Shown piece by piece: positions 8,257 through 38,659 of a DNA stretch of 64,000 bases. This stretch comes from Eledone cirrhosa (taxonomy: Eukaryota). The notes under the pieces were generated by a model, which did no database searches, was not told where the DNA came from, and was given only the letters and a program-made list of their open reading frames with translations. Position 1 is the stretch's first letter. Each line of letters opens with the position of its first letter. The DNA is taken from the NCBI GenBank assembly GCA_964016885.1, contig OZ024747.1:61504001-61568000 (forward strand). The letters run 5' to 3'. The position numbers and the translations under genes were made by a program.

Positions 8257-8301
8257 AACGATGTACTAGTTTCAAGCTTGTTAGCTATCATCAGCACCGT
8301 T
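8257..8301 (-). ncRNA. Minimal type I hammerhead ribozyme
   Basis: Reverse complement of 8691-8735. Confidence 0.85.
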
Positions 8302-8554
8302 TACCCATCTGCCAGATAGTTGAACGTTCGAAAGTATATACTTTCCTTATGAAAATTAACGGCTGAGTAGCCTAATTTGCATATTGAGTGAGTTAAATCG
8401 GTCAGGCATACCGAAAACGATAAGTTGAAAAAAATGAAAACGAAATTTCATTTCTCACTCTTAGTATGGCACTTACTTAAATGTAAGTATGTATGTATAC
8501 GTACATACATATATGTATACAGACGTACAGTAGCATGCATATATATATATATAT

Positions 8555-8594
<40 letters not shown>

Positions 8595-8690
8595 GCATAC
8601 AGGTACACATACATATATGCACGCATCAGCCGTTAATTTTCATAAGGAAAGTATATACTTTCGAACGTTCAACTATCTGGCAGATGGGTA

Positions 8691-8735
8691 AACGGTGCTG
8701 ATGATAGCTAACAAGCTTGAAACTAGTACATCGTT
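8691..8735 (+). ncRNA. Minimal type I hammerhead ribozyme
   Basis: aacggtg CTGATGA t-agc-taacaa-gct-t GAAA ctagta catcgtt: 7-bp stem I, intact core, palindromic stem III ACUAGU, GUA cleavage predicted after 8728. Confidence 0.85.
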
Positions 8736-8897
8736 CCTGTGTCAGTGTTGAACAAAAAGGTGACGTGGTTGCCTTAACACCGTATGGCATAAATTCAGGC
8801 TGTTCGCTTTGTTGACAAACAAACGAACAAAGCGGCCGGCGTTATAATAAACGTCGGCTAAACTGATGCGTGCATATATGTATGTGTACCTGTATGC

Positions 8898-8935
<38 letters not shown>

Positions 8936-9065
8936 ATATGTATATATATATGCATGCTACTGTACGTCTGTATACATATATGTATGTACGTATACATACA
9001 TACTTACATTTAAGTAAGTGCCATACTAAGAGTGAGAAATGAAATTTCGTTTTCATTTTTTTCAA

Positions 9066-9127
<62 letters not shown>

Positions 9128-9128
<1 letters not shown>

Positions 9129-9525
9129 TGCAAATGTGGTGGGCGTAAGGAAGGGCATCCAGCAGTAGAAAACCAGCCAGAAACACCCCTATATGACTGA
9201 GACACAGTCACCCGACATAACTTGCCTCAAAATAGGACCTGTGTAACCCAGCTCCAATACTATGGGTATGTGCTGAGAATGTCTCAGGAAAGAATCGCTG
9301 GACAGATTTTACAGACAAAACCAACTGGCAAGAGACCCAGGGGTAGACCCACCCTGAATAAGATCGTTGGATAACAACCATGAACTTGGCCAGTCATGCT
9401 TGGGGATCCAGCCAGATCAGTTGGAGTGGGGTTGCTTCTGACAGGACCCGCTGGAAGGAGTGTTTGAGGACTTTGCCCCCCACAACCCTCTCAAGAAGAA
9501 GAAGAAGAAGAAGAAGAAGAAGAGA
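9128..9525 (+). mobile_element. RTE-clade LINE 3' fragment ending in (gaa)n
   Basis: Translates QLQYYGYVLRMSQERIAGQILQTKPTGKRPRGRP; related fragment at ~31550-31720. Confidence 0.75.
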
Positions 9526-10469
9526 TATGGTAACTTTATAGTGAACACAAAAATCAGTTCATATGAGCGGGAAGAAGAAGAAGAATATTACTGATAATTA
9601 ACTTCTAAACTCTCCAAAATGGGTCAAGGACAGTATTAGAATCTGGTATCACTTGAGCTCAGAACATTTGATTGTCAAGACATTAAATACAGCAAAACAT
9701 TTTGTGAAACTATCCACAATTCTTGCCAATTCATTGCTCAGAATAACAACAACAACAACAACAACAACAACAGTTATCAATCAATCTAAAAGTACTATAG
9801 GAATTTTTGTAGAGTAAAAATTACAAAAATAATAATAATAACTTTTTAAACAAAATTAAAATATGGAAGTTGATAAACAAATATTAAAATGGTATGGGTG
9901 GGGGGGGGGGGCAGTATCAAACAGAAAGATTTTGATTTATAGCAGACTGAAGGATTGCAGACATAACAGAAAGAAATTTTTCAAAGAGAATATTTAATTT
10001 AACTGACAGTGGAAAAAATAAAATTATATAAAAATTTGAAACAAATAAAATTTCCAAGTGGCAGAAAGTTGGCTTCTGTTTGAAAAACAACAATTATTAC
10101 AACAACAACAACAACAACAACAACAACAGAAACAGCAGCAACAACAACAACAACAACAGAAGCAGCAGCAACAACAAAAACAACGTAAGCAGCAGCAACA
10201 ATAATAACAACAGCAACAACAACATAAACAACAACAACAACAACAACCATAACAACCAAAAACTGTCCACCTGAAATCCTTTCGTGTTGTGCTATTTTTC
10301 TTTTACTAGCAGCCTTCAACTGTACAAACAGACATTCCCTGACAGTTTCATTATATATATATATATATGTGTGTGTGTATATATATATATGTGTGTATAT
10401 ATGTATATATATATTTATATATTGATGTATCTAAAATGAATTATGTAATAAAGAATTAAGTCATATTTG

Positions 10470-10930
10470 ATGATGTTGATGGCAGTGGTGGTGTTGCTGG
10501 TGCTGGTGCTGGTGGTGGTGGTGGTGGTGGTGGTGTTGCTGGTGGTGGTGGTAGTGGTGATGCTGGTGGTGGTGGTTTTGGAGCTGGTGGTGGTGATAGT
10601 GCTGATGCTGGTGGTGATGCCGATGGTGGTGGTGATGCTGGGTATTGGTGCCGATGATGGTGTGGTGATCCTGGTGGTGATGATGACGGTGGTGGTGGTG
10701 GTGGTAGTGATGCCGATGGTGGTGGTGATGTTGGTGGTGGTGGTGCTGGTAGTGGTGTCGATGGTGGTGCTGGTAGTGGTGATGGTGGTGGTGATGCTGG
10801 GTATTGGTGCCGATGGCGTGGTGATCCTGGTGGTGATGATGGTGGTGGTGGTGGTGGTGATGCCAATGATGGTGGTGATGGTGGTGATGGTGGTGATGGT
10901 GGTGATGGTGGTGATGGTGGTGATGGTGGT
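10470..10930. repeat. (GGT/GAT)n trinucleotide tract
   Basis: Direct reading; source of the poly-His and poly-Pro ORFs. Confidence 0.95.
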
Positions 10931-11099
10931 TATATTTTGATTTGATGAAGTAGTAGTAGGGGGAAAGAAATAGCAGAGATGTGAGGTAAAATAGCAATCA
11001 ATTCCAACCTGGAATTAAAAGTAGAGCAGCAAAACCTTTCTAATGTCACCCAAGGCCCCAGTTGTTGTATGTCACCTTAGACCTCCATTGGTTCCAGTG

Positions 11100-11985
11100 A
11101 GGGCTCCAGTTGTTTGATCAATGGGAACACCTGCTCAGAAAATTAATGACCAAGTGGCTGAGCCTTCCACAGGCATGTGTACCCTTGATGTACTTCTCAG
11201 GGAGATTCAATGTAGTGTAACTGGTGTATTACAAGGCTGGCCTTTCCACAGACATGTGTATTTCTCAGGGAGATTCTGTGTAACTGGTGTATTACAAGGC
11301 TGGCCTTTCTACAGACATGTATTTTTCTCAGGGAGATTCAGTGTAACTGGTGTATTACAAGGCTGGCCTTACCACAGACATGTGTATTTCTCAGGGAGAT
11401 TCAGTGTAACTGGTGTATTACAAGGCTGGCCTTTCCACAGACATGTGTATTTCTCAGGGAGATTCAGTGTAACTGGTGTATTACAAGGCTGGCCTTTCCA
11501 CAGACATGTGTATTTCTCAGGGAGATTCAGTGTAACTGGTGTATTACAAGGCTGGCCTTACCACAGACATGTGTATTTCTCAGGGAGATTCAGTGTAACT
11601 GGTGTATTACAAGGCTGACCTTTCCACAGACATGTGTATTTCTCAGGGAGATTCAGTGTAACTGGTGTATTACAAGGCTGGCCTTTCCACAGACATGTGT
11701 ATTTCTCAGGGAGATTCAGTGTAACTGGTGTATTACAAGGCTGGCCTTTCCACAGACATGTGTATTTCTCAGGGAGATTCAGTGTAACTGGTGTATTACA
11801 AGGCTGGCCTTTCCACAGGCATGTGTATTTCTCAGGGAGATTCAGTGTAACTGGTGTATTACAAGGCTGGCTTTTCCACAGACATGTGAATCCTTGATGT
11901 ACTTCTCAGGGAGATTCAATGTAGTGTAACTGGTGTATTACAAGGTAGGCCTTTCCACAGGCATGTGTACTCTTAATGTACTTCA
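11100..11985 (-). repeat. 63-bp minisatellite (~11-12 copies) expanded inside a SINE
   Basis: Unit tcagggagattcagtgtaactggtgtattacaaggctggcctttccacagacatgtgtatttc; unit and left flank are the reverse complement of the SINE body at 62280-62420. Confidence 0.9.
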
Positions 11986-12099
11986 AGCAAACTACATTTT
12001 ATTATATTGTTTTACATTTTACTTTTTATAAACAATGTATTAGTTTTTGAATGGTTTCATTTCATTCTTACTTAAAAAAGTTGCATATATGGTGTGGTA

Positions 12100-12480
12100 A
12101 ATAAATATGACCCGCCTTGCCTATGTACAAAGCGAAACCTACAGTCACTACCCCTACTCCATCCACCCACACCCCCCCTTTCTATGTTAAGTTATGTTGG
12201 TACCACAACATCCAGTCCTAATTAAATGAGGTTGTGTAGGTGTCATGACAAAAAAACACACAGTCCACGCTGTAATGTGGCCGTGTAGGTAACACGGTAA
12301 AAACCTCCCAGGCCACACTGTAAACGTGGTTGGTGTTAGGAAGGGCACCCAGCCATAGAAAACCCGCCAAACAGTCCTATACGAGCAAGACAACCAATCT
12401 TGCCTCAAGTGGGAAAATTCCCGTCTAACCCATGCTAGCGTGGAAGATAGACGTTAAACGATGATGATGATGATGATGAT
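12100..12480 (+). mobile_element. RTE LINE 3'UTR fragment
   Basis: Colinear with 22955-23360; ends in (gat)n. Confidence 0.85.
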
Positions 12481-12689
12481 ACACCAGGTCCGAACACAAA
12501 GGAACCAAATGCCCTCTGTCACTGCCTCCATCTCTTCTACTATTATAACCAAATGAGGGGCCATGCGCTGGCGGCCCCATGGCCCTGGCAGACAGCGTAG
12601 AGAAGGCGTTTCACCGGAGGATGGTGAGGGAGATGTGCTGGAAGAGCCTTCCAACCATTCTATACAAAAAGTTGTAAACCATCTTTAGC

Positions 12690-13098
12690 AACCCAGCCAA
12701 ACCCTAACCCTAATCCCCCTCCCCACCAACCTTGCTTGGTGGGGAGGGGGATTTTGGACACTCTGGAATGAAAAACAAAACCCATCAAAGGGCAGAGAAA
12801 CTCAAGAGAGTCAACGGCCATCCAACAAAGTTTTTTTTTTTTTTCGTTTGCATCCAATGATGTAGACCAGTTCTTCTTGTGGGGTAAATGCATTCAATGT
12901 TCAGAGAGTGGGATTGGCTCCGTGCAAAGCCTTTCCTTACTTAAAAAAGCTTCAAGCACAGGCTTTGCTTGATATGTGACATTTTTGCGATGCATGGCAT
13001 TGCTGGCCATAGGCAAGTCCCTAGCAGGACTAAAAAGCCATGTCTGTGATGCTCATGTTTAAGTATCAAGCATTAATTGAAATCGAGTTGCAGCCATC

Positions 13099-13100
<2 letters not shown>
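12690..13100 (+). mobile_element. Diverged non-autonomous RTE-derived element
   Basis: Colinear with 27295-27748 and with 47138-47735 (-); retains KSLAGLKSH remnant. Confidence 0.65.
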
Positions 13101-13142
<42 letters not shown>

Positions 13143-13414
13143 ACATAATTTCTCAGTTTTATATGTATTCAAATACAATCTCACTTCATCTCGATCAGAG
13201 ACAACTTTGTTTTTTCATTTATATCATCATCATCATCATCATAATTTTACGTCCGCTTTTCCCTGCTTGCAAGGGTATATATATATATATATATATGAGT
13301 TTGAATTATTTTTCCCACATCTTACGTTAACTATTTTTCCCATTTTGATGCTATAGTCACTTATATATTATGGAATACTGTTGGCTTTTTGCTACAATAT
13401 TTTCTATACCTTTC

Positions 13415-13473
<59 letters not shown>

Positions 13474-14044
13474 TATATACCCATACACACAGAGTGAGTG
13501 TTTACATTTAAACAAGAAAGATAGCAGAAGCATTAAAAAAAGTGTCAAATCAACTTAATAGAAAGTTTAGATGGATGAGTTTGCTTGAAGCAGATAAGTT
13601 TGTAGTGGCAAAACTATCTAAATTAATCTCATTTCATCTGGAGTGGTTTTGACCAACTTTAAATGATGACCGCTATGAAATTCTAAAATGTGGCTGAAAT
13701 CACCTCTTTCCATTTGGTTTGTTTGGGTTTTTTTTTTGTTGTTTGGTTCTTGTTTTGTTTTTTAAATAACATTTCTATCTTGTTTGTATTGAAGATTTTC
13801 TTCACAAAATTTCCTAAACCCTCCATAATCTCTCTGTCTGTTGTTATCGTAGTTTTGCCAGTTTAAATGATATTAATGTTACTTCAGGAGCGACAACATA
13901 AGAAGGTGATTTAACTAACATCTTTTAATGAAACAAATAAAATGATGACAAATTGAGAAAACAAACCCCAAAAAATAAATAATGCATTATACAGAATTTT
14001 TTTTTTTTAACATGTGTGTATATGAGTGAGATGGTATATAGGCC

Positions 14045-14405
14045 TATATGTATAGAAGGTGGCATCTGTATGTATAGAGGGAGGCATGTATGTGTATAGA
14101 AGGTGGCATGTGTGTGTATAGAGGGAGGCATGTGTGTGTATAGAGGGAGGCATGTGTGTGTGTATAGAGGGAGGCATGTGTTGTGTATACAGGGAGGCAT
14201 GTGTGTGTATACAGGGAGGCAGAGGCATGTGTGTATACAGAGATGCATGTGTGTATACAGAGATGCATGTGTGTATACAGAGATGCATGTGTGTATACAG
14301 AGAGGCATGTATGTGTATACAGAGAGGCATGTGTGTGTATACAAGGAGGCATGTGTGTGTATACAGGGAGGCAGAGGCATGTGTGTGTATACAGGTGTGT
14401 ATACA
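14045..14405. repeat. ~20-28 bp minisatellite gcatgtgtgtgtatacagggag
   Basis: Direct reading; abuts a family A SINE head (14406-14492, -) and a CR1 3'UTR (14497-14700, -). Confidence 0.85.
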
Positions 14406-14875
14406 GGATTTGAACTCAGAATGGCAAGGGCCGTAACTCTATGCGTCAAAGCATGGCGTCTGACCCTCTACCGATACTGCCAATCCGCCACCAAATAATA
14501 ATGAAAATTATTGTGTACAGTGCTCAGGTGCACTACAACTCATCAAATGTGCGTGTATAGTACATAGAATAATGTACAAATGTCAGGAAAATGAACAGTG
14601 TAGGAGACATGATATACACACAGACACAGACACAGATGTATGCATGTATATGGAGGGGGAATATCAGGTGTAGTGTTGGTGAATTTCGGGAAACATGGCA
14701 GTTTTGGCAGACAAGTTATCTCCAGGACAGTATATTGCCAATCTTTTTAGTTCTTTGTCAATGCTGTCATGAGGTTCAGTTACTTAAAGTCAGTCTTCAA
14801 TACTTCATCCTATCTTCCTAAATTTACCTCTTGCGCAATTCTCATCGACTGAAATTTCTTAGCACTTTATATATA

Positions 14876-14910
<35 letters not shown>

Positions 14911-14918
<8 letters not shown>

Positions 14919-15359
14919 TAAAACATGTCTATAGAATCACCAGATAAAATATATACCATTTCCTCTCCCAATTAGCATAATTAACCATATAAAAAATCAA
15001 TTAGACCAAGCTATAAGAATAAAGGCTCCTATGAAGAAATCTCCGACAAATAACCGAAAGCAGCCCCTTCGCGGCGGTTACGACGGATATTTCGACAGCA
15101 TGTATGAATCAACCAGATATACAGTCAACTAAACAGAATTAGGTGTAAATTCATACATGCTGTCGAAATATTCGATAAATAATCCGTCGTAACCGCCGCG
15201 AAGGGGCTGCTTTCGGTTATTTGTCGGAGATTTCTTCATAGGAGCCTTTATTCTTATAGCTTGGTCTAATTGATTTTTTATATGGTTAATTATGCTAATT
15301 GGGCGAGGAAACGGTATATATTTTATCTGGTGATTCTGTGGATATGTTTTATGATATAT
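14911..15359. repeat. ~200 bp near-perfect inverted repeat beside (TA)n, ~40 bp spacer
   Basis: cataaaacat...gcatgtatgaat matches attcatacatgc...atgttttatg in reverse complement. Confidence 0.9.
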
Positions 15360-15750
15360 AGCTCTGATTATTTAATTTATTAATTCTTCATTGAGCCACA
15401 AAGTGACCCGTTGCAAAACACATATATTTATGACTTTATATATATATATGTAAACCTTTATATATATATATATTTTATATCGGTAATTAGATTACCGATA
15501 TAAAAGACACAGAAGTGAAAAGCGAAAACCAACCAAACAGTGAGTGTGTTCTGTTATTAATTCTGGCAATATTACACAAATATGACTCTCCCCAAGTATA
15601 ACAATATATATATATATATATAATCATATACCAGCAGGACTAGATTACAGGATGGACTAGGTGCATTATGCCATGGCACCAGCACAACTACCTTACTTAT
15701 ATAATTATATATATATATATATCAAAGGAATTTGAAGCATTGTATATGGT

Positions 15751-16087
15751 ATAAAGAATTCAAAGTTGGAAAGCCACGACAATGCAGGTTTGGATGGAAA
15801 ATAATTAAATCATAAGAAACAGGTGTTGCTTTTTACCTTAATTTATCCATATGACCTGATATTTCGAGATCAATATCTTTTCTTCCGAGGAAAATAAAGG
15901 AGCTATTCCATTGTCTGATGTGGCTGTCTCTACTATGCTGGCAAGCCGCATCGGACACTGGAATAGTTACTTAATTTTCCTCGGAAGAAGAGATATTAAT
16001 CTCGAAACATCAGGACATATAAATAAATTAAGGTAAAAAACAACCTTTCCATCCAAACCCACATTGTCATGGCTTTTAAACTTCGAA

Positions 16088-16095
<8 letters not shown>
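15751..16095. mobile_element. Imperfect palindromic element in (TA)n with two divergent hammerhead-like motifs
   Basis: Arms pair around ~15930; + strand 15978-16015 tcct CGGAAGA a-gaga-tattaa-tctc GAAA catc agga; inverted copy 15854-15891. Confidence 0.7.
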
Positions 16096-16126
<31 letters not shown>

Positions 16127-16162
16127 GTTAAAACAATCAAATCTTAGTTTAATACATTTATT

Positions 16163-16209
16163 TGCTGATGGCTGTTTCTTCCAGAGGGATGTCTGGAATC
16201 ATCAGAGCA
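16163..16209 (-). ncRNA. Type I hammerhead ribozyme with decayed stem III
   Basis: Minus strand tgct CTGATGA ttccaga-catccc-tctggaa GAAA cagccatc agca; stem III is consistent with CpG decay of palindromic ACGGCCGU. Confidence 0.75.
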
Positions 16210-17094
16210 TAGGGAATGTCTAAACAGGTGATTCAAATCCTAGTCTTCAGAACATTTAGGCAGATACATAAGTGTTGTCAGTGTCCTAGACATCATGTAG
16301 AGAATCGGGAGTTAAAAGAGTGTTATGCTTCAGAGAACTCAATGGTGAAAAGTGCAAAAGGTACAAACAAAAAAAGTTACAAGCAAGAGAAAATGTAAGA
16401 TAGGATAGACATAAGATATCATAGCATTGGAGATCGGATAATATTAAGGGTATATAATGCAAGAGTCAATACAATCAATAAGGCATGTATGAGGAAAGAG
16501 TTATATTACAGCTGAAATAAGCATATTTCGTGTAGACTATCAAAGCATGTTATGAGTGTTAGAAATGTTTAAATTTTTTTAAATGGCGTGCTATATGGTA
16601 GGGAGGCATATGGTGATAAAATAGGTATATGTTCTGTGAGATGTAATGCAGAGCACGTGATTGAATTGGATAGGTAATTTTCATTCAAAAATGTTTATAT
16701 TGGAGTTCGTATATAGATGTATATGTTGGGTGTAACTCAGATGTATTAACCATGGAATTTTCTTAGTTTTAGATGTAATTTTTTTGAGATGTGTGTAGTT
16801 TATAGATATGTGTTTGGTAAAAGTAAATTCACCGAATTACAGGCCATGTTGTTATAGTAAGTATATTATACTATGGATTCCTATCCTCAAATTTTCTATT
16901 AAGGAATATTAGGGTTTGCTTTATGTGCGATTTGCATTAATCGTTATTAGGCTGCTGATAAGCCGTTAAGTTGTTTTAATTTAGTACTTAGTACTTACAT
17001 ATTTATAATTGTATATTAAACATATATAAGTATAAATATTATTATTATTACTATATATATATACACATATATGTAGTTATGTATTTATATATAT

Positions 17095-17543
17095 GACAGC
17101 TGCATAAAAAGGTGCAGAGCACTAGAAGCCATGGAGTGGAGAGACCGAAAAAGACCTGGGATGAGGTGATAAAAGCCGACCTTACCCAATTCTACCTCTC
17201 AACGGCGATGACACATGACTTACCATGGGTACAGCCGAAGCTGAAGCATATAGACAATATGCCCCCACCGCCTCCCACTGCAAAGTGGTCGTGGAGGTGC
17301 CATGGCAAAAAAACACTCAGCTCACACTGTAAAGTGGACGTGCAGGCGCCACGAAAAAAGGCACGCAGCACTCACTGTAAATGAGGTTGGTGTTAGGAAG
17401 GGCACCCAGCTGTAAAAATCAAGCCAGAATCAGTTTTAGTATGAGCAAGACAAGATCAGCCGACCGGACACTGTCCACAACAGGACAACCCGACTAACCC
17501 ATGCTAGCGTGGAAGAACGGACATAAAACGGTGATGATGATAA
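17095..17543 (+). mobile_element. RTE LINE 3' end
   Basis: Translates RPKKTWDEVIKADL; tail shared with family B SINE; ends (gat)n. Confidence 0.85.
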
Positions 17544-17616
17544 TATATATATGCACATATATGTAGTTATTTATATATATATATATATACAGTTTTTTTT
17601 TACACATACACACACG

Positions 17617-17652
<36 letters not shown>

Positions 17653-17895
17653 TAAATTAGCAAGAATCATATTTCAGCTATTGGAAATTAGCGAAAAACA
17701 ACTTCCGAGATGTGTGGCAAGCGCTCCATAGAAGCTAGTGAACTAGAGCTACAACATAAGTTAAAAGGCCAAACAAACTGAGACGATGGTTAAACCATTA
17801 TCTGCACAGCCATAGAAACGACCAAGTAATTCGGGTCAAACAAATAAAATATGATTGAAAATTATACCCGGACCCCTAGAAGGTTGAGTGCTAGA

Positions 17896-18031
17896 AGGTA
17901 AAATGACACAAACAAGAGATGGATAGTTTCCCTTTGTCAATGATCTACTACGGGTCACGGATGTTTCGGTGACCCATAGAAGACAACTGACGAAAGGAAA
18001 CTGTCCATCTCTTGTTTGTGTTGCCTTACCT
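17896..18031. repeat. ~135 bp hairpin within a TA-embedded element
   Basis: acacaaacaagagatggatagtttcc pairs with ggaaactgtccatctcttgtttgtgt; inner gggtcac/gtgaccc. Confidence 0.85.
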
Positions 18032-19132: not shown

Positions 19133-19175
<43 letters not shown>

Positions 19176-25347: not shown

Positions 25348-25631
25348 TTAAATATATATGTATATTCAATATACCAACCCAAATTAAACAGTGAGTGTGT
25401 TCTGTTATTATTTCTGGCAATATTATAACAATATATATATATACATATATATCCCACCCTTGCAGGCAAGGAAAAGCGGACATAAAATAATGATGATCAT
25501 ATACATTATATATATATATATATATATATATAGTGGTAGGACACTGGAAGGTAATATCCGTAGTGGTAGAGCACTCAGTCCATGGGACGAGTTAGGTAGA
25601 AGTGGTAACACAACAGTTAGTTCACCATACT

Positions 25632-25667
25632 GAGAACAATTGTTTCACCTTAGCGGATCCTCAGCTC
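25632..25667 (-). ncRNA. Minimal type I hammerhead ribozyme
   Basis: Minus strand gag CTGAGGA t-cc-gctaa-gg-t GAAA caattgtt ctc; palindromic stem III ACAAUUGU, GUU site. Confidence 0.75.
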
Positions 25668-25677
25668 GTAAATTTAT

Positions 25678-25713
25678 GAGCTGAGGATCTACTAAGGTGA
25701 AACAATTGTTCTC
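25678..25713 (+). ncRNA. Minimal type I hammerhead ribozyme
   Basis: gag CTGAGGA tctactaaggt GAAA caattgtt ctc. Confidence 0.7.
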
Positions 25714-25821
25714 GGTATGGTGAACTAACTGTTGTGTAACCACTTCTATATATATATATATATATATAACCAAAACTGGAATTGAACCATCAGCACAGTT
25801 GAGGTATGTCAGACATCAATT

Positions 25822-25887
25822 TATTTTATCTGATGAGGACGTACTGATGAAATAGCTCAGTACCTCTGAAATATATATAATAAAATA
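25822..25887 (+). ncRNA. Type I hammerhead ribozyme
   Basis: tattttat CTGATGA gga-c-gtactga tgaaatagc tcagtac-c-tct GAAA tatatata ataaaata: 8-bp stem I, 10-bp stem II, palindromic stem III, AUA site after 25879. Confidence 0.85.
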
Positions 25888-25929
25888 TATTTTATCCCAT
25901 GAATGTCTATATTTATTAATATTTTGAAG

Positions 25930-28075: not shown

Positions 28076-28124
<49 letters not shown>

Positions 28125-28493
28125 CACACATATATGTATATATATATATACATATACGCACATATATGTATATATGTATATATATATATATACATATACG
28201 CACAAAAATGTATATATATATATACATATATATATATTCATATACGCACATATATGTATATATATATATACATATATATATATATACATATACGCACATA
28301 TATGTATATATATATATATATATATACATAAATATATATACATATACACACATATATATACATATATATATATGTATATATATATACATATATACATACA
28401 TATATACGTATACACACATATATACACATATACATATACACACATATATACACATATATATATAGATATATAGATATATATATATATATATAG

Positions 28494-28524
<31 letters not shown>

Positions 28525-28550
28525 GATATATATATGTATATATATAGAGA
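27749..28550. repeat. Compound (TA)/(TATG)/(TACA) microsatellite, ~800 bp
   Basis: Direct reading. Confidence 0.95.
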
Positions 28551-28821
28551 GAGATTGTAGCATCCTTTCAGGCTAGTAGATAATTTCCGTCTGAGCTCTC
28601 TCTTATAGAAATGCATTCTGCAATGTAGTACAATGTAGTGCAATAACAAGCATGTGGTGTCATACCGTGCAGTCGTGCAGACAGTCTCTGGTTTGTCTCT
28701 TACTAACAGACATGGCAGCCACATACACTCTCTCACATACATACACACACACATATATATATATTTATACATACGTATAGTGTGTGAGTGTGTATGTGTA
28801 ATGCGTATCTGTGCCTATGTG

Positions 28822-28863
<42 letters not shown>

Positions 28864-29645
28864 GCGTGCATGCCTGTGTTAGTGTGTGACTGTGAATGAA
28901 TGTGTGTGATAGTTATTGATTCGAATCAAATCAGCGTCTTAAAGCCACACGCTAACCTCCCACGTACTTCCCCTCTTCCTCCTACTCCTCTTCTTCTTCT
29001 TCCTCATCCTTTTCCTCTAACAAACAAAAAAAAAACATACAAAAAAAAGGAAAGAAAATATCAATAAAATTTACCAAGGGAAAATAAAAACCTTCAACCA
29101 AAATAATAAAAAAATAGCTAAAAACAAAAGAAAGAAATATGAAATAAAATTTAATGATATTGGGTTTGGAAGGATAGGTAGGGGGCATATGGGGGGGGGG
29201 GGGGGGGGTAGTCAGAGTAAATTTGGATGATGTGAATAGAAGAACAATGTTTTAATAGGTGTATGTGGGAGGGGGCTGATGGGGGATAGAGTAGAGTTGT
29301 TTGGGTGGAGTGGAGTGGAGAAGGAAGAGGAAGGGTTGCAGTTCTCCTAGCAAGAGTATCATGTGATCTAGCGCTTCAAAAGAACTTACCGTTTCTATAG
29401 GAACAGTATATAATTTATTTAGAGCGAACATTTTCTATGTGAAAACTATGAGAACAACCAGGAGAACAACACGATGAAAATTTAATTATGCAGTTCCGAT
29501 CATTTAATAATTTGGACAAAGATAACCAAGTTTTCATATATTTTGGTTTTGTTTTTTAAATTCTTTTATATTTCAAAATATTTAATAACTTAGTTAAACC
29601 ACTCCCTGAATTACAAAACACTTGGAGTATATATAACACACACAT

Positions 29646-29676
<31 letters not shown>

Positions 29677-29935
29677 AATACAAAAACCAAAATCCCCAAA
29701 TCCAAAGGGGACTCAATAAGGATTGTATGTACTAATAGTATATATATGTATATATATAGTGGTAAAACATAAGGACGTCATATCCATAGTAAATAGAGGA
29801 CTCAGTCCGTAGGACAAGTATGGTAGAACTTTGCTCAAGTTGAGAATCTGTGTTGGGTAAAACGTGCATTCTCGAGTATGGTTTGCTAATTTGTTGTGGA
29901 ACTAACTTTATATATATATATAGAGAGAGAGAGAG

Positions 29936-29977
<42 letters not shown>

Positions 29978-30163
29978 GGACGATTTGTTAAGCTTTCATT
30001 ACGTTTATTGATTGCTGACGCGCGTTTCACTATAGATCAGCTCAAAGTTCGATCTGTATCAATCTGGCCCAACTCTGGAATCAAAAGCTCATCAAACCTC
30101 TGCTGTTGTAATGATAGAATGGATATCTATCTATCTAGCTATCTATCTATCTATCTATCTATA

Positions 30164-31469
30164 TAGGTTGTGGACAATATTTGTTTGAAATTTTCAACTG
30201 CTAATTTTATGCAAATTTGTTTACTTCTGTTGTCACTCTTGTCTTCATAAAAATAGTGACTATATTTCCATTATTTATTTTAAGAATAATTGATTATGAA
30301 TAATTTTGAACCTCCAAATTTGTGGAAGAGACAGGGAGTTCTTCTTGGAATCCGCGCCAGGAGGACAAATAAGGAAATTTCAGACTTTCTCAGCGTCAGC
30401 AGGAGAATGGTGGAAAAGGTCAGAAAGGAATTGGAAGATTCAGGATTCGACTACGAAGCAACATCAGAGAGGAAAACACATGATCGACGATCTGATGCCT
30501 TCAGAATGCCCGAGTTCGTCGCTGAAGTTGAGGATATCATCAACAATGAACCTAGCTAGTCGATGCGTGCCATTGCAAGGGAGAAAGGCGTGGATGAAAA
30601 GCTCATTAGGCTGGTGGTACATGAAGACATTCGCTACGTTTCATACAAGATGAGGAAAGGACAATTTCTGTCAAAGGCGATGCAAGAAAAGTGACTGAAG
30701 CACGCAAAGAAGCTAATCAACAAGTTGAAACACCCACTGGAGCCTGACATGCTGTGGTTTTTCTCGAATGAGAAAAACTTCTACCAAGACCAGAAGATCA
30801 ACTCCCAGAACAACAGGTGGCTCGCTGTCTCATCCAAAGACGTGCCCAGAGTCATGTAGACAAAGTTTCCACGACAACATTGGTCTTAGGTGTCGTCAGC
30901 AGTCAAGGTGACGTCATGCCACCTCACTTCTTCCCTGAGGGCCTCAAGCTGAACACCGATGGCTACATTTGCGTTTTAAGCAAGGTAGTAAAGCCCTGGA
31001 TTGACCAGGTAGCTGCAGGTAGGCCGTACATGTGGCAGCAAGACTCAGCGCCCTGCCATACCAGCCGAAAGACCCAAGCCTGGCTGTCAGAGAACTTCAT
31101 CGACCACACTTCACCTGACATCTGGCCTCCTAGGTCGCCTGACTGCAACCCCCTCGACTTCTTTGTGTGGGGCGCAGTGGAACGAGACACCAACAGATCT
31201 AGCTGCAATACGAAAGACGATCTGAAGGCCAAGATCACAAGGGCCTTTAGGGGCCTAAGTCAGGGCGACAGTGACGAAAGCCTGTAGCTAGTTCCGAGGC
31301 CGCCTTGAGGCCGTCATTAAAGCCAATGGCGGGTTTATCAAGTGAGATCGTAAGAACAAGTCATGAAGACAAACTGACCCAGGTTTGATAAATATATCTT
31401 AAAAAATAAAACTACTGTGTTATTTTTTCCTAGACAGTAATCTTGCGAACAAATATCGTCCGCACCCTG
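30164..31469 (+). mobile_element. Full-length decayed Tc1/mariner-superfamily element, maT (DD37D) family
   Basis: ~27 bp imperfect TIRs taggttgtggacaatatttgtttgaaa / ttgcgaacaaatatcgtccgcaccctg; TA flanks; 1.3 kb. Confidence 0.92.
30296..31345 (+). pseudogene. DD37D transposase pseudogene
   Basis: WFFSNEKNF (first D mutated to N) ... WQQDSAPCH ... WPPRSPDCNPLDFFVWG with 37 residues between the second and third D; several stops and frameshifts. Confidence 0.92.
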
Positions 31470-31502
<33 letters not shown>

Positions 31503-32259
31503 TTCGGAATTACCTAACACACATATATATATAAACAATACAAGAATACATAACATCCATGAGTTTGGCTGGTCTCCCTTGGGGATCCAGCTGGATCAGT
31601 TGGAGATGGTTGCCTCTGACAGGACCTGCTGGAAGGAGTGTTTGAGGACTCTTGCCCCACAACCCTCCCAGGAATAAGTGGGTGAAGAATAAGATGATGA
31701 AGATGAAGAAAAAGAAGATGTAGATGAAGACGACAATGTTGGCTGCGGCAGTGATGCTTATGACACAGAGGAAGAATACAAAAAACAAACAAATGTGAAG
31801 ATGCATTAACATAAAGTCTTATTAGTTTCATGCTTAAAAGAAAGGGAGTTAAACAGTCAACATGTCAGGTAGTTGCTCTTCATCAGAACAGAGTTCTGAG
31901 TGTAGAATAAAAGGAATAAAGACAGAATAACAAAGGAAAAACACAAAGAAAATAAAAAGGAGAAGGAAGTGGAGTAGTTATGATGGGTGGAGGAGTGTGG
32001 GGTGGGGGTCAAAGTGAGGGGTGCAGATGTGTAGTTGGTGGTCATGTGTGTAGGTGGGCTGCAAATGATGTTGCTTGTATGTGTATGGGTGTTATGTGTT
32101 GTTGGAAGTGTGTGTGTGTGTGCAGGTGTAAAGTCTTTTGTTGTTGGAAGCGTGTGTGTGTGTACGCAGGTGTTAAGTGTTTTGTTGGTGGAAGTATGTG
32201 TATATGTGTATGCATGTATGTGTGTGTGTATATATTCTTTATTGTGGCCAAGTGGTGAG

Positions 32260-32310
32260 TCTTCTTACTCTGGATTTTCACCTGTGTATTTACCTTATCA
32301 TCAGACAAGA
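32260..32310 (-). ncRNA. Degenerate type I hammerhead ribozyme
   Basis: Minus strand tcttgt CTGATGA taaggtaaatacacaggt GAAA atccagagta agaaga; inverted partner of 32486-32530. Confidence 0.6.
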
Positions 32311-32485
32311 TTGAATATTTAGTCACAGAAAGAGTAAATATAGAGAAATGCCTGGGAAGAAGGGGATAGATGTGTGTTTTTAATTAGGATGAGTATGTGG
32401 GGGAGGTGGATTTTAGGGGTGATGAGGGCAATAATTGAGGATATGAGGAAGGTATATAGTGTCTCTGCCATTGAATATTCAGTTG

Positions 32486-32530
32486 TGTCTGATGATCCTG
32501 TGAGTACACAGATGAAACTCCAGAGTAACA
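32486..32530 (+). ncRNA. Type I hammerhead ribozyme
   Basis: tgt CTGATGA tc-ctgtg-agta-cacag-at GAAA ctc-ca-gag-ta aca; GUA site after 32527. Confidence 0.75.
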
Positions 32531-32638
32531 AGACTCAACATCTATCCATAGAAAAGAATATTTAAACTCTACTTTTGTATTGAGTACTCATTCTCACATC
32601 CATCAATATGACACAGATATATATATATTTTTTTTTTT

Positions 32639-32978
32639 GGAGGCACATGGCTTAGTGGTTAGAGCATTGGCCTTGCAATCGAAAGGTTGTGAGTTCAATT
32701 CTCAGACCGGGTGATGTGTTGTTTCCTTGAGCAAGACACTTTATTTCACATTGCTCCAGTTTACTCAGCTGTAGAAATGAGATGATAGGACTGGGGTCCC
32801 TATCATTCCACTGCAAAGTGGTCGTGGAGGTGCCACGGCAAAAAAGTACTCAGCACTCACTGTAAATGAGGTTGGTGTTAGGAAGGGCATCCAGCTGTAG
32901 AAATAAAGCCAGAATCAGTTCCCGTCCCACCCTTGCAAGCAAGGAAAAGTGGACGTAAAATGATGATGATGATGATGA
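32639..32978 (+). mobile_element. CORE SINE family B
   Basis: tRNA head, CORE ccttgagcaagacactttatttcacattgctccagtttactcagctgtagaaatgag, RTE-like tail, (gat)n. Confidence 0.9.
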
Positions 32979-33172
32979 TATACATATATATATTGATTTT
33001 TCCCTGGATTTCACAAAATTCTATGGATTAATCTGTCTTGATTTTTTTAAAATTGAGTTTGAATTATTTTCCCACATCTTACGTTAACTATTTTTCCATT
33101 TTGACGTTATAGTCACTTATATATTATGAAATACTGTTGGCTTCACGCTCACAACAATTTCTATACTTTAAT

Positions 33173-33215
<43 letters not shown>

Positions 33216-33792
33216 ATATACAAATATATACAGTATGACAAAAAACCAAGGGTAACAACTTACATTCACTCTTTTATTTCTATGTCTGTTTCTGTACATA
33301 GAGCTTCTCTCACCTTACCCAAGATAATAGTCAAGTATTCCACTATAATCGCATATATATATATATATGCGACTCCAACAAAATGTGCTCAGTCCACACT
33401 GTAGTATGGTCATTTTGGGGCCACAATAAAAAGCACTCAGCATTCATTGTAAATGTGATTGGTGCTAGGAAGGGAATCCAGCCATAGAAACCAACCCAGA
33501 AACATTTCTGTATGAGCAAGACATGGTCATCTGTCCTGACTTGTCTCACAATGGGACAACTCGTCTAACCCATGCTAGCATGGAAAAATAGATGTTAAAT
33601 AGTGATGATGATGAACGCACATTTACAGTATACATTGTGTATTTTAACAAGGAAGACATGGGTGGAAGCAGCGAATCCAATGTAAGATCATGGCAATGGG
33701 TTGGGTCAAGATTAAGATAGCCAACTATTTCTTACAGATATATCCACTGAGCTAAAGGATCAGAAAGTAGTTTGGTCCAGTTTCTACCTTAA

Positions 33793-34001
33793 CCCTTTAG
33801 TGTTCAAACCGGCCAGAATTCTCTACCTCTTTCTGTTCAAACTGGCTGTAACTAGTCGCTCAAACTGATGTTAAGCTATTGTTCTCAAAACAAATACTTT
33901 CAAATCTCATAGATTCGATATTATGTGAGATAATTATGTGAGGTAAAGCCTTTACCATTAAAATATAATAGTATATATAGAGTAATGTGAATGTTAAAGG
34001 G
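33793..34001. mobile_element. piggyBac-type MITE
   Basis: TTAA on both sides; cccttta...taaaggg. Confidence 0.9.
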
Positions 34002-34636
34002 TTAAAAAAAAGGAAAAGAATGACTTCACTTGTAGTTCTAAAGAATTTAATTCAATTTCATATTATGATTTTACAATTTAGTTTTGTAGATCTAGTAAGT
34101 TCTTTGTTAACTTCGGAGGGGGGGGGGATTTTTAAAGATTCTTGGTTAACTTTATATATGTATATATGTATATATATATAGTCTTGTAAAAGTTCAAAAA
34201 GTTCACATAAATGAATTGAGATGAAATACAATGGTGGTCAATGAATGTAAAAGTAAAACTTATTGAAAAAGTTTATATTTGTAAATTTTCTCCTCTATCA
34301 CTGCACATTTTTATAAATGGTATCAGACACAAGAAAATGGTGCACATCACTGCATTATATTAAGGTGTTTGGTTTTGGTTGAATTATCTCAAACTCACCA
34401 GAATGGTTTTTAATGAAGCATCATTGAGTTTTTTATTGTCTTTTTCCTTTTTTTCTTTTACTGTCTACCTGTCATTTATCATTGAAACTATTTTAGCTTT
34501 CTAGTAAATGTATGTGTGTGTATATGTGTAAATATGTGTGTGTGTGTGTGTATGTGCAGATATGTGTGCAGATATGTGTGTGTATGTGTGTGTGTATATA
34601 TACATAAATATTCATACATTCATAAAAATAAATGCG

Positions 34637-34672
<36 letters not shown>

Positions 34673-34718
34673 CATATACACACACCACATATATATATAT
34701 ATATACATATACACACAC

Positions 34719-34754
<36 letters not shown>

Positions 34755-34999
34755 AACCCATGCTAGCGTGGAAGATAGATGTTAAACAATGATGATGATA
34801 TATATAGACACACACATATATGTACTGGTTTCTTGTAAAACCATATCAAGTATGTGTGAGTGTGTTTGTGTGTGTATGTCTGTGCGTGTTCCTGTTTTTT
34901 TTTCAATAAGATGCCCTACATATTGTGTTGCATTCTCTTAATCTACAGATAATTGTTTTATTCTTTTGCTTTAGTTCTTGAATTTTGCTTTGAAATTTG

Positions 35000-35612
35000 C
35001 AACAACAATTACAATAACAATAACAGCAATAACAACAACAATAATAACAATATTAAAAACAAGAACAATGATAACAATAACAACAATAAAAACAATTATA
35101 ACAATAATAATAATAAAAACAATTATAACAATAAAATCAATAACAGTAATAATAACAATAACAACAATAAAAACAATTATAACAATAACAACAACAGCAA
35201 TAATAACAATAACGACAACAACAACAACAATAATAACAATAACGACAACAATAACAACAACAACAGCAACAATAATAACAATAACGACAACAATAACAAC
35301 AGCAGCAGCAACAATAATAACAATAACGACAACAATAACAACAACAACAGCAACAATAATAACAATAACGACAACAATAACAACAACAGCAATAACAATA
35401 ACAACAACAACAGGAACAACAACAACAACAGCGACAACAATAACGACAACAACAACAGCGACAACAATAACGACAACAACAACAGCAGCAACAACAACAA
35501 CAACAGCGACAACAATAACGACAACAACAACAACAACAGCAATAACAATAACGACAACAACAACAATAACGACAACAACAACAATAACGACAACAACAAC
35601 AGCAACAATAAT
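35000..35612. repeat. (AAC/AAT)n tract
   Basis: Direct reading. Confidence 0.95.
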
Positions 35613-35896
35613 TTGGTGGTAAAATATTTTAATTAAGGAAAAACAGTTGAAAAGGTCACGCAAATTGTTGGGGAAAGTAAAAGAGTATAGTTGAAGAAAT
35701 TTAAATAATTTCTGTTTTAATTATTAATTTTTATTCCATCATATTCTCTTGGCCATTGCCTTCACGACAGAATCATTTCTATTCCACCATTCTCTTTTAT
35801 CTCTGAGACAAATTCCTTCATCTTCCCCCATCACCGTATAACCACTCTTTCCCTAACTGTTGCTTGCTGGTATCAATAGACGTACACATATATATA

Positions 35897-35948
<52 letters not shown>

Positions 35949-36126
35949 ATGTATAAATATATATAATGTGTGTGTGTATGTATAAATATATGCATGTATA
36001 TGTATATATATATCTATGTATATATATATATATGTATGTATGTATGTATATGTAAGTATATATATATTGTATGTATATATATATATATATATATTATATG
36101 TATATCTATATATGTATATATATATG

Positions 36127-36170
<44 letters not shown>

Positions 36171-36251
36171 ATGTGTATATATATATATATATATGTGTAT
36201 GTGTATATATATATATATATATGTGTATGTATATATATATATATATATATT

Positions 36252-36283
<32 letters not shown>

Positions 36284-36308
36284 GTAGTTTCCATTTGTTA
36301 ATATCGTA

Positions 36309-36355
<47 letters not shown>

Positions 36356-36616
36356 GGAAAAAATGAAACGAAATTTCATTTCCCGCTCTTAGTACGGCTG
36401 TCACTTAAATATAAGTATGTACACGTACATACATATATGTATACAGACGTACAGTAGTATGTATATATATATACATACATGCACACATATATATATGTAC
36501 GTATGGATTCACCGAACATTTATTATAATGCTCGGTGTGTTTGTAAACAAACATCCCGTATTAAGCCGTAGTATCTAGCAACCATCGTTGCTCGTTTGTT
36601 CAACACTGGCAAAGGA

Positions 36617-36659
36617 ACGCTGTACTAGTTTCAAGCTTATTAGCTATCGTCAGCAACGT
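36617..36659 (-). ncRNA. Minimal type I hammerhead ribozyme in a diverged copy (36352-36705) of the 8-kb element
   Basis: Minus strand acgttg CTGACGA t-agc-taataa-gct-t GAAA ctagta cagcgt. Confidence 0.85.
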
Positions 36660-36795
36660 ATACCTTCCTGCCAGATTGTTGACCGTATATACTTACTTTA
36701 TGCATTACCTATATGTATATATATATTATATGTATATGTATATATATGTATGTATATGTATATATATATATATATGTATGTATATATATATATAT

Positions 36796-36873
<78 letters not shown>

Positions 36874-36952
36874 CTATCCAGACAGCTTCCAAAAATAATG
36901 GTTGCATTTAATAGGGTACGTCAAAATTATTTATAAAACTGTTTATATATTG

Positions 36953-37017
36953 TATTTTGTCTGATGAAGGCATACCATATTTTAATTTGGTATCCCTGAA
37001 ATATGTATAATGAAATA
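36953..37017 (+). ncRNA. Type I hammerhead ribozyme
   Basis: tattttgt CTGATGA aggcatacca...tggtatccct GAAA tatgtata atgaaata; in TA-embedded element ~36870-37240. Confidence 0.8.
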
Positions 37018-37058
37018 AATATGGTTTTATAAATATAGTTTCCATTTATTAATATCGT

Positions 37059-37137
37059 TTCATCCTTACGGGGTCGATAAAATAAAGTACCAGTAATGCA
37101 CTGGGTAATTGCTGGCCTTGTGCCTAAAGTAGAAACA
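37059..37137 (+). mobile_element. 5'-truncated family A SINE inserted in the hammerhead element
   Basis: Target site duplication attaatatcgt (37048-37058 / 37138-37148); empty site visible in the paralogue near 38110. Confidence 0.9.
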
Positions 37138-37234
37138 ATTAATATCGTATATCTACTCCAAAAACTTGTCGAGTGCTTTATATCAGTTATAAAATATTTA
37201 CTTGTTGTATCCCAACAATTTTAAATAGAACTTT

Positions 37235-37294
<60 letters not shown>

Positions 37295-37529
37295 TTACGT
37301 GTAGCCGGCCTCTGTGTCTGTCTGTGTGTGTGTGTGTGTCTGTGTGTGATACAAGCCGCCCATCCGTCGTCCAAGTTATGACTTTTTTTAGCCGTTGCTC
37401 GCACCAACCGGAGGTATATGGTCTTTAAAGCGATGAAATGCCTATGATAGTTGGAAGATCACTGATGAAGGACAAACTTTTTTCATATGTAACCCATTTG
37501 CAACTCCGCAGCGCCCTTATTATCATATT

Positions 37530-37574
<45 letters not shown>

Positions 37575-37637
37575 TAATGTATGTATATATATATATATAT
37601 ATTACATGTATAATGTATATATATGTGTATATATATA

Positions 37638-37679
<42 letters not shown>

Positions 37680-37795
37680 AAATGTATATATATATATATA
37701 TATATACACACATTCATACATATATATAAATATAAACATATATATATATTTATACGATATTAAACAAATGGAAACTATATTTATAAAACCATATT

Positions 37796-37861
37796 TATTT
37801 CATTATACATATTTCGGGGATACCATATTAAAGATATGGCATGCCTTCGTCAGATAAAATA
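37796..37861 (-). ncRNA. Type I hammerhead ribozyme
   Basis: Inverted copy of 38008-38073. Confidence 0.8.
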
Positions 37862-38007
37862 CAATATATAAACAGTTTTATAAATAATTTTGACGTACCA
37901 TAAATATGAGCGACCATTAGGTAGGAAACTGGTTTGGTAGTTTCCTACCTAATGGTCGCTCATATTTATGGTATGTCAAAATTATTTATAAAACTGTTTA
38001 TATATTG

Positions 38008-38073
38008 TATTTTATCTGACGAAGGCATGCCATATTTTTAATATGGTATCCCCGAAATATGTATAATGAAATA
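38008..38073 (+). ncRNA. Type I hammerhead ribozyme
   Basis: tattttat CTGACGA aggcatgccatat-tttta-atatggtatcccc GAAA tatgtata atgaaata; AUA site after 38065. Confidence 0.8.
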
Positions 38074-38659
38074 AATATGGTTTTATAAATATAGTTTCCA
38101 TTTGTTTAATATCGTATATCTACTCCAAAAACTTGTCGAGTGCTTTATATCAGTTATAAAATATTTACTTGTTGTAACCCAACAATTTTAAATAAAACTT
38201 TTGCATATATATATTTATATATATAATATACATTCATACATATATATAAATATATAAATATATGTACATAAACAATTATATATACATACACATATATATA
38301 TATATATATATATACATACATATAGGAACGAGTAGGACCCCGACGGCGGAGCTCAAGCCGTTTCGACGGCTAATTCTGGACTAAAAATCCCACTCTACTA
38401 CCCTAAGTATTGAGTACTTTGGTGCGTTATGGTCCATCTGGTTCCTTACCACATTTCCTTCGTTATACATACATATATATATACATACATATATATATAC
38501 ATACATATATGAACATACTCATGTATATATATCATAGATATATATAACACCACAAGTGATAATGTCTATTCATTTAGAACAGTGTGTTGTATGCGACTGT
38601 GAATGCGTATATGTGTACTACACACATGTATGTGTGCGTCTCTTTTTGTGCTACACACA

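What the first reader, a model, noticed from the sequence alone, without database searches (positions are those of the whole stretch)
8257..38117. All five two-ribozyme inverted duplications share the same divergent polarity
Seen: in 8257-/8691+, 15854-/15978+, 25632-/25678+, 32260-/32486+ and 37796-/38008+, the left arm carries the hammerhead on the minus strand and the right arm on the plus strand. RNA 5' ends therefore face the centre and both 3' ends run outward, mostly into TA tracts. Five unrelated families agreeing (1 in 16 by chance) suggests a shared mechanism. Inference: twin priming at both ends of a break in (TA)n, or fold-back template switching during reverse transcription, similar to the inverted pLTRs of Penelope.
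Basis: partly seen in the sequence, partly recalled or inferred. Interest (0 to 1): 0.75.

Follow-up and report, generated by a model that had tools for sequence, protein, structure and literature searches.

The report
Back-to-back Penelope retrotransposon ends
The five mirror-image ribozyme pairs are real and are back-to-back inserted 3' ends of Penelope-type jumping elements, an arrangement already described; almost every pair carries the element's extra 'tail' on one side only, which likely records the copying enzyme starting twice on one RNA, once from each side of the cut in a TA repeat.

Summary
Confirmed, and largely known. All five loci are head-to-head inverted pairs with minimal type-I hammerhead motifs, 3' ends outward. 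The rule holds beyond the window: 58 of 58 close pairs in four family searches, 13 of 13 inversions in family 1, and 16 divergent against 3 convergent in 590 kb of unselected DNA. Families 3 and 5 are 3' ends of coding Hydra-clade Penelope-like elements (PLEs); family 1 is a non-coding ~500-nt tandem retrozyme; families 2 and 4 have no proven coding partner. Head-to-head polarity, a one-sided tail and (TA)n targets are published for PLEs. Added here: 81 of 84 resolved pairs carry exactly one tail, often on the arm that reaches less far 5', and 10 have abutting or barely overlapping arms. This argues against simple cDNA fold-back and for twin priming at two start sites (inferred). The retrozyme carries the same signature. 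This scan reported the same structure several times in other parts of this genome.

The parts
7979..8629 (-). Locus 1 left arm: 1.3 units of a ~502-nt non-coding tandem retrozyme (family 1); tail-less 3' end into (TA)n
8264..8294 (-). Minimal type-I hammerhead, family 1 (predicted cut after GUA at 8264)
8626..9069 (+). Locus 1 right arm; 4-nt microhomology at the centre (8626-8629); ~58-nt tail 9012-9069 into (TA)n
8698..8728 (+). Minimal type-I hammerhead, family 1
15722..15925 (-). Locus 2 left arm (family 2), variant core CGGAAGA at 15887; remnant tail about 15722-15753
15944..16092 (+). Locus 2 right arm, core at 15982, tail-less; 86% identical to left arm; 18-nt centre
25534..25672 (-). 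Locus 3 left arm: 3' end of a coding Hydra-clade PLE (family 3), core 25664, ~63-nt tail 25534-25596
25673..25748 (+). Locus 3 right arm, core 25681, tail-less; near-perfect palindromic centre
32232..32400 (-). Locus 4 left arm (family 4, old), degenerate hammerhead core at 32304, tail-less; inner boundary approximate
32440..32618 (+). Locus 4 right arm, core 32489, ~56-nt tail 32562-32618; inner boundary approximate
37751..37941 (-). Locus 5 left arm: 3' end of a coding Hydra-clade PLE (family 5), core 37853, tail-less, 5' end at element position -186
37942..38210 (+). Locus 5 right arm, core 38016, 92-nt tail 38119-38210 into (TA)n
36915..37243 (+).
36358..36686 (-). Older solo family-1 copy (core 36653, about 87% identical)
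25820..25890 (+). Solo hammerhead of a further family (core 25830)

Best explanation
The five pairs are single insertions of Penelope-like retroelement 3' ends joined head to head inside (TA)n, and they likely arise because the element's enzyme cuts both target strands and starts reverse transcription twice on one RNA, at two fixed sites 35-92 nt apart. Shown: families 3 and 5 are ends of coding Hydra-clade PLEs; the tail is the next stretch of the tandem unit; both outer ends sit at short TA motifs of the template in families 1 and 5; almost every pair has one tail; the two arms share source variants. Inferred: each target 3' end primes one cDNA, one at the pLTR end and one at the tail end. 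Both are extended towards the RNA 5' end (often a likely start site at -186 in family 5) or stop early, and the two free ends are joined by end joining (0-4 nt microhomology or short filler). Because each cDNA starts at a target end, the element's 3' ends must face outward. Family 1, a non-coding tandem retrozyme, is likely moved in trans by the same kind of enzyme; families 2 and 4 are likely older PLE ends.
For: Polarity: 20/20, 15/15, 15/15, 8/8 close pairs divergent; 13 of 15 family-1 loci hold an inversion, all head-to-head; 16 against 3 in 590 kb of unselected DNA. Coding link: 750-codon open frame in L121 (48) with Hydra motifs and TERT as best fold match; family-3 RT and endonuclease frames. 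Tail = 92 nt directly ahead of the next unit's ORF start. One tail: 31/31 (35, 37), 13/15 full-length loci, 30/30 (70), 7/8 (80). The tailed arm reaches less far 5' by at least 4 nt in 24 of 31 family-5 pairs, so neither arm contains the other. Ten loci have tail-only or barely overlapping partners (L022, L026, L028, L029, L045, L062, L068, L070, L048, L278). Arms share variants: within-locus difference below between-locus in families 5 and 2 (0 of 5000 permutations each), and locus-specific variants on both arms in 6 family-1 loci. PMC11167929: a purified PLE protein cuts and extends both strands, starts at two sites that bound the tail, and is predicted to be a dimer.
Against: No biochemistry and no reads across a junction of this window. 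Exceptions: two tails in L126 and L273, none in L129/L140. The tail lies on the longer arm in 3 of 31 short family-5 pairs, 6 of 13 full-length loci and about 9 of 30 family-3 pairs, so 'tail on the shorter arm' is a tendency, partly explained by the tail's own length. Arms are not closer within than between loci in families 3 and 4 (3647 and 4785 of 5000 permutations). One RNA cannot be told from two RNAs of one source. In PMC11167929 the start site is not homologous to the cut DNA, unlike the TA motifs seen here. Solo copies exist (9 of 38 family-5 loci). No coding partner is proven for families 1, 2 and 4.
Confidence: 0.65

Rival explanations
1. Self-priming hairpin intermediate (PMC3846280): an antisense RNA or a cDNA folds back, a hairpin copy is made, and the endonuclease resolves it so that one end keeps the tail and the other loses it.
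For: Gives head-to-head polarity and shared variants. Near-perfect palindromic centres occur (window locus 3; L019, L038). PMC8557442 ascribes the one-sided tail to endonuclease resolution.
Against: Tail-only and non-overlapping partners (L022, L028, L045, L048, L278) leave no duplicated stem to fold. In 24 of 31 family-5 pairs neither arm is a subset of the other, so extra trimming steps are needed. Blunt centres with no loop or priming stem occur.
Confidence: 0.2
2. Two RNPs or two RNAs from the same source locus prime the two target ends independently (twin priming in trans).
For: Explains overlapping arms without strand displacement; L273 has two tails and arms of different sequence type; no within-locus similarity excess in families 3 and 4.
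Against: Does not by itself explain exactly one tail in 81 of 84 pairs, or arms that stop at the partner's start site.
Confidence: 0.12
3. Assembly or amplification chimeras, or chance juxtaposition of separate insertions.
For: No contig of the laid runs bridges the centre of locus 1 or locus 3; separate insertions do pile up in TA tracts.
Against: Arms differ by up to 25% and by the tail; junctions differ between loci. Contigs of other runs hold other minus-to-plus junctions of families 1 and 3 (36, 71, tables 5 and 5c). Chance gives no polarity bias.
Confidence: 0.03

Closest known systems
EN+ Penelope-like elements with an adjacent inverted 5'-truncated copy and one-sided tail (PMC3846280, passages; PMC8557442, passages)
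   Same: Head-to-head inverted pLTRs described as the most frequent arrangement; tail at one end; partial tandems; hammerhead in the pLTR.
   Different: Tails here are 35-92 nt rather than 30-40; most copies are 150-500-nt stubs; the one-tail rule is counted here; those papers propose self-priming or endonuclease resolution.
Hydra clade of PLEs, including Hydra-1_Obim (PMC8557442 section 11 and supplement passages)
   Same: RW(K/R), DKT, CxCx5C linker, CxxC and CxH motifs, C-terminal endonuclease, hammerhead near the 3' end, (TA)n targets.
   Different: Families 3 and 5 differ from Hydra-1_Obim (their RT and hammerhead motifs were not found in the supplement); family 5 is about 4.1 kb with a 1.8-kb 3' UTR, against under 3 kb in the paper.
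Poseidon_Ac in vitro (PMC11167929, main text parts 1-2 of 4)
   Same: Two reverse-transcription start sites that bound the tail; both target strands cut and extended; AT-rich target.
   Different: Different clade; start site not homologous to the target there; the parts read do not connect the two sites to the inverted arrangement.
Metazoan non-LTR retrozymes (PMC7229834, passages; bioRxiv 10.64898/2026.07.22.740005, part 1 of 5 and passages)
   Same: Family 1: non-coding tandem repeat with one type-I hammerhead per unit; PLE mobilisation proposed there.
   Different: ~500-nt unit; arrays show head-to-head inversions, (TA)n ends and a one-sided tail, which term searches did not find in those two texts ('inverted' 0 in the first; 'tail' 0 and 'head-to' 0 in the second).
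L1 twin priming (recalled from memory, no call)
   Same: Both target strands prime on one RNA, giving an inverted, microhomology-joined piece.
   Different: In L1 the pieces do not overlap and the second site is variable; here both sites are fixed and the arms mostly overlap.

Membership tests
EN+ Penelope-like element (families 3, 5) | Single ORF with telomerase-related RT | tested here: met
   750-codon frame in L121; model pLDDT 82, best PDB match TERT, E 1e-9; Pfam and PDB sequence searches of this ORF blank; homologue P0009 hits RVT_1 below cut-off; family-3 frames 39% identical
EN+ Penelope-like element (families 3, 5) | C-terminal GIY-YIG-type endonuclease | tested here: inconclusive
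   C-terminal domain aligns with homologues and, by eye, with the published Hydra alignment; no profile hit obtained
EN+ Penelope-like element (families 3, 5) | Partial tandem pLTR with tail, and inverted 5'-truncated copy | tested here: met
   family 5: (22 of 30 ORF-start loci have an inverted copy upstream, all head-to-head); family 3: tail and inversion, tandem junction not examined
EN+ Penelope-like element (families 3, 5) | Type-I hammerhead in the pLTR with short palindromic helix III | tested here: met
   against PMC4209133 passages; activity untested
Hydra clade | RWK and DKT motifs, CxCx5C linker, CxxC and CxH, no CCHH | tested here: met
   family 5: RWR, DKT, CxCx5C in most copies (L121 itself has the first Cys changed), CxxC, CxH (48, 65); family 3: linker, CxxC, CxH seen, N-terminal motifs not read; definition
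Hydra clade | (TA)n insertion | tested here: met
Hydra clade | Placement in the RT phylogeny | not tested
   no tree built; similarity to published Hydra sequences judged by eye
Hydra clade | Generally under 3 kb | tested here: not met
   family 5 unit about 4.1 kb (22, 42); the paper says 'generally'
Non-LTR retrozyme (family 1) | Non-coding tandem repeat with a type-I hammerhead in each unit | tested here: met
   arrays of up to more than 11 units, ~500-nt period; no PLE frame inside
Non-LTR retrozyme (family 1) | Self-cleavage and circular RNA | not testable with these tools
   no RNA run holds the stretch beyond a 0.03 share
Coding PLE (families 2, 4) | Hammerhead end continuous with a PLE ORF | tested here: inconclusive
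   Hydra-like frames lie beside family-2 ends in L264-L266 and 2.9 kb upstream of a family-4 end in L267, but continuity was not shown

The most novel reading that the evidence does not exclude
PLE integration is obligate-style twin priming on one RNA: the two known start sites are used together, one per target strand, so every double-ended insertion has 3' ends outward and exactly one tail. A non-coding tandem retrozyme (family 1) is inserted with the same signature, which is direct structural evidence that PLE enzymes move animal retrozymes in trans and can copy multi-kilobase retrozyme concatemers.
Probability: 0.5. Interest if true: 0.55.

Novelty: new member of a known kind. Interest (0 to 1): 0.3.

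Why it matters
The polarity itself is known PLE anatomy. The counts matter because the origin of PLE tandem and inverted structures is stated to be unresolved (PMC8557442). A near-absolute one-tail rule and abutting arms turn that question into a simple two-primer test and link the two in vitro start sites to the inversion. The retrozyme with the same signature supports PLE-driven mobilisation, so far argued from co-occurrence and phylogeny. In practice these stubs are very abundant (42 motifs in 390 kb of spaced samples; roughly 3 x 10^5 per genome by extrapolation) and Rfam and Pfam miss them.

Tried and rejected
Rfam at gathering score: no hit. Pfam and PDB sequence searches of the family-5 ORF: no meaningful hit. 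The atlas look-up gave no result. Read checks: no listed contig bridges the centre of locus 1 or 3 in the runs laid; the families are too repetitive and the individuals may differ, so this is no test; one family-1 joint listed as 'opposite strands' could not be oriented. RNA evidence: only 0.03 shares, not used. Idea 'the tail is always on the shorter arm': dropped; true in 24 of 31 short family-5 pairs but 7 of 13 full-length loci and about 13 of 30 family-3 pairs, and the family-3 query favoured tail-less arms. Idea 'family-1 arms come from different templates' (from end alignments): rejected by the variant table except for L273. Coding partners of families 2 and 4: not established. Junction microhomology cannot separate twin priming from fold-back, since both need the same match. 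Target-site duplications and empty sites: not assessable in (TA)n, and no related genome is held. No tree and no complex prediction were run.
Full report
OBSERVATION. The window is G000:C7:61504001-61568000 of a 3.0-Gb animal genome, likely an octopod (inference only: the best-scoring named homologue is from Argonauta hians). All five inverted pairs are present with the left copy on minus and the right on plus. Cores lie at 8294-/8698+, 15887-/15982+, 25664-/25681+, 32304-/32489+ and 37853-/38016+; arm identities are 99.7, 86, 93, 75 and 99%. The motifs have the CUGANGA/GAAA core, stems I and II and a very short palindromic helix III, as described for PLE hammerheads (PMC4209133, passages). 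Locus 2 reads CGGAAGA in both arms, and the left motif of locus 4 is degenerate. Rfam is blank and folding is not better than shuffles. My descriptor found 33 motifs in 264 kb and none in three shuffles.

POLARITY BEYOND THE WINDOW. Searches score only the best 40 candidates per family. Among listed matches within 4 kb of each other, all pairs were minus-then-plus: 20 of 20 (family 5), 15 of 15 (family 3), 15 of 15 (family 2), 8 of 8 (family 4); the first three counts include the window's own pair. Of 15 family-1 loci fetched, 13 hold an inversion, all head-to-head. In 590 kb taken without regard to content (200 kb flanking the window, 39 spaced 10-kb stretches), 63 motifs gave 16 divergent and 3 convergent inverted partners within 1.5 kb; all 3 convergent ones have 34-62 nt of (TA)n between them. 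Six more convergent neighbours appear in the family-5 loci, the plus copy always ending in TA, five with copies of clearly different divergence. I read these as separate insertions into one TA tract.

WHAT THE FAMILIES ARE. Family 5 is the 3' end of a ~4.1-kb element. L023 shows (TA)n, an inverted copy with tail, an ORF, a 1.8-kb 3' UTR, the hammerhead and (TA)n. L121 holds an open frame of 750 codons. It has 23 relatives at E <= 1e-10, 30-41% identical; the model has mean pLDDT 82 and its best PDB match is telomerase TERT. It shows RWR, DKT, CxCx5C (in most copies), CxxC and CxH, the Hydra-clade marks of PMC8557442 (section 11; alignment 65; supplement passages 63, 67). The 92-nt tail is the start of the next tandem unit, just ahead of the ATG. 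Family 3 is likewise the end of a Hydra-like coding element, 39% identical in protein to family 5. Family 1 is a non-coding ~500-nt unit in arrays of up to more than 11 copies, one hammerhead each: a retrozyme by structure. Families 2 and 4 are older; Hydra-like frames lie next to some copies but continuity was not shown.

THE ONE-TAIL RULE. Each family has two classes of 3' end, 35-92 nt apart; in families 1 and 5 both sites, and in family 3 the first, are followed by TA in the natural template. Family 5: of 38 loci, 29 hits sit in a head-to-head pair and 9 are solo or open; with two incidental pairs, 31 of 31 carry exactly one tail. Full-length family-5 loci: I fetched 20 of the 30 loci, chosen for an upstream inverted copy; 4 lacked the far end, two are one duplicated locus, and of 15 resolved 13 have one tail, one has two and one none. 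Family 3: 30 of 30 resolved pairs among 41 loci; the other 11 are solo, interrupted or separate insertions. Family 1: 7 of 8 resolved; the exception L273 has arms of different sequence type. Total 81 of 84. Families 2 and 4 show the same in most readable pairs, with one apparent tail-less pair (L190); not included in the total. All five window loci have one tail.

MECHANISM. A copy made by folding back on the first cDNA must lie within the first arm. In 24 of 31 family-5 pairs the tailed arm reaches less far 5' by at least 4 nt (4 about equal, 3 longer), so each arm holds sequence the other lacks. Ten loci have a partner that is only tail or overlaps by at most 16 nt (L022, L026, L028, L029, L045, L062, L068, L070, L048, L278). 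This resembles L1 twin priming (recalled). The asymmetry is not general: the tail is on the long arm in 6 of 13 full-length loci, and family 3 is mixed. Both arms come from one source: within-locus difference is lower than between loci in family 5 (0.010 against 0.015) and family 2 (0.095 against 0.123), 0 of 5000 permutations each, but not in families 3 and 4 (53); six family-1 loci carry their own variants on both arms. Gene conversion between arms is not excluded. Centres vary: of 30 mapped family-5 junctions 9 have 1-4 nt overlap, 5 are blunt and 16 have extra letters, some of them short inverted fillers and some due to mismatch with the reference. Of 57 tabulated family-5 arm ends, 17 stop at -187 to -182 and only 1 at -200 to -188 (91); -186 is the A of a TCACT motif, called initiator-like in PMC3846280, so an RNA start there is plausible but untested, and the query selected arms reaching -172. 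A purified PLE protein cuts and extends both strands, starts at two sites bounding the tail and is predicted to be a dimer (PMC11167929). Putting these together, twin priming on one RNA is my reading (0.65), a hairpin intermediate with trimming the main rival (0.2).

ARTEFACT CHECK. No listed contig bridges the centre of locus 1 or 3, so these loci are not confirmed by reads. Contigs of other runs do hold other minus-to-plus junctions of both families, and diverged arms with one-sided tails are not what chimeras give.

KNOWN OR NEW. PMC3846280 (passages) calls head-to-head the most frequently observed arrangement and notes the tail on one inverted pLTR; PMC8557442 shows the same for all EN+ PLEs and lists an octopus Hydra element (63). 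Searches for 'Penelope' with 'twin priming' (3 papers, none on PLE integration by title or abstract start) and with 'head-to-head' and 'pLTR' (1 paper) found no statement of the twin-priming reading or of a counted one-tail rule; searches added none. Older subscription reviews on PLEs are not in the library, and bioRxiv supplements were closed. Earlier notes of this scan reach the same reading on other parts of this genome; they are unchecked and not independent support. A look-up with family-1 DNA returned nothing, though one note mentions a short non-coding ribozyme element. Verdict: real, a known kind, new families; modest interest from the counts and from the retrozyme.

Noticed in passing
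window 37059-37138: An ~80-nt piece of an abundant repeat sits in the family-5 copy exactly at the pLTR/tail boundary, flanked by a 10-nt duplication; the same repeat interrupts PLE ends in L105, L129/L140 and L198 and forms the 193-nt tandem at 50161-50542.
   Followed up: partly
tails of families 3, 4, 5 (e.g. window 38119-38145, 32562-32592): Each tail begins with a similar small bulged hairpin a few nt after the first end site, as earlier scan notes reported; not tested for covariation.
   Followed up: partly
window 15887- and 15982+; L181-L210: Family 2 has CGGAAGA in the core in both window arms and in other copies seen; CCGAAGA cores occur in another family. Activity of such position-4 variants is unknown here.
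   Followed up: no
L280, L283, L049: Family-1 arrays show higher-order repeats (period 2 in L280 on both arms, period 4 in L283, period 3 in L049), suggesting long concatemer templates.
   Followed up: partly
L137:5989-8001: Open frame of a further Hydra-like family (about 71% DNA identity to family 5) directly beside a family-5 insertion.
   Followed up: no
L121:2552-4801: Family-5 ORF has an asparagine-rich, low-confidence insert (about residues 480-514), recalling the N-rich inserts described in PMC3846280.
   Followed up: no
window 52398-60148, 43802-44865, 11214-11888, 1062-1780, 62572-63583: Homogeneous minisatellites (67-nt x 115, 17-nt x 62, 63-nt x 11, 38-nt x 19, 37-nt x 28).
   Followed up: no
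window 14910-15360, 17906-18021, 40033-40198: Further inverted repeats without a detected hammerhead.
   Followed up: no
L049:272-826: RT fragment of another, by recalled motifs Neptune- or Penelope-like, PLE clade near a family-1 array; link not shown.
   Followed up: no
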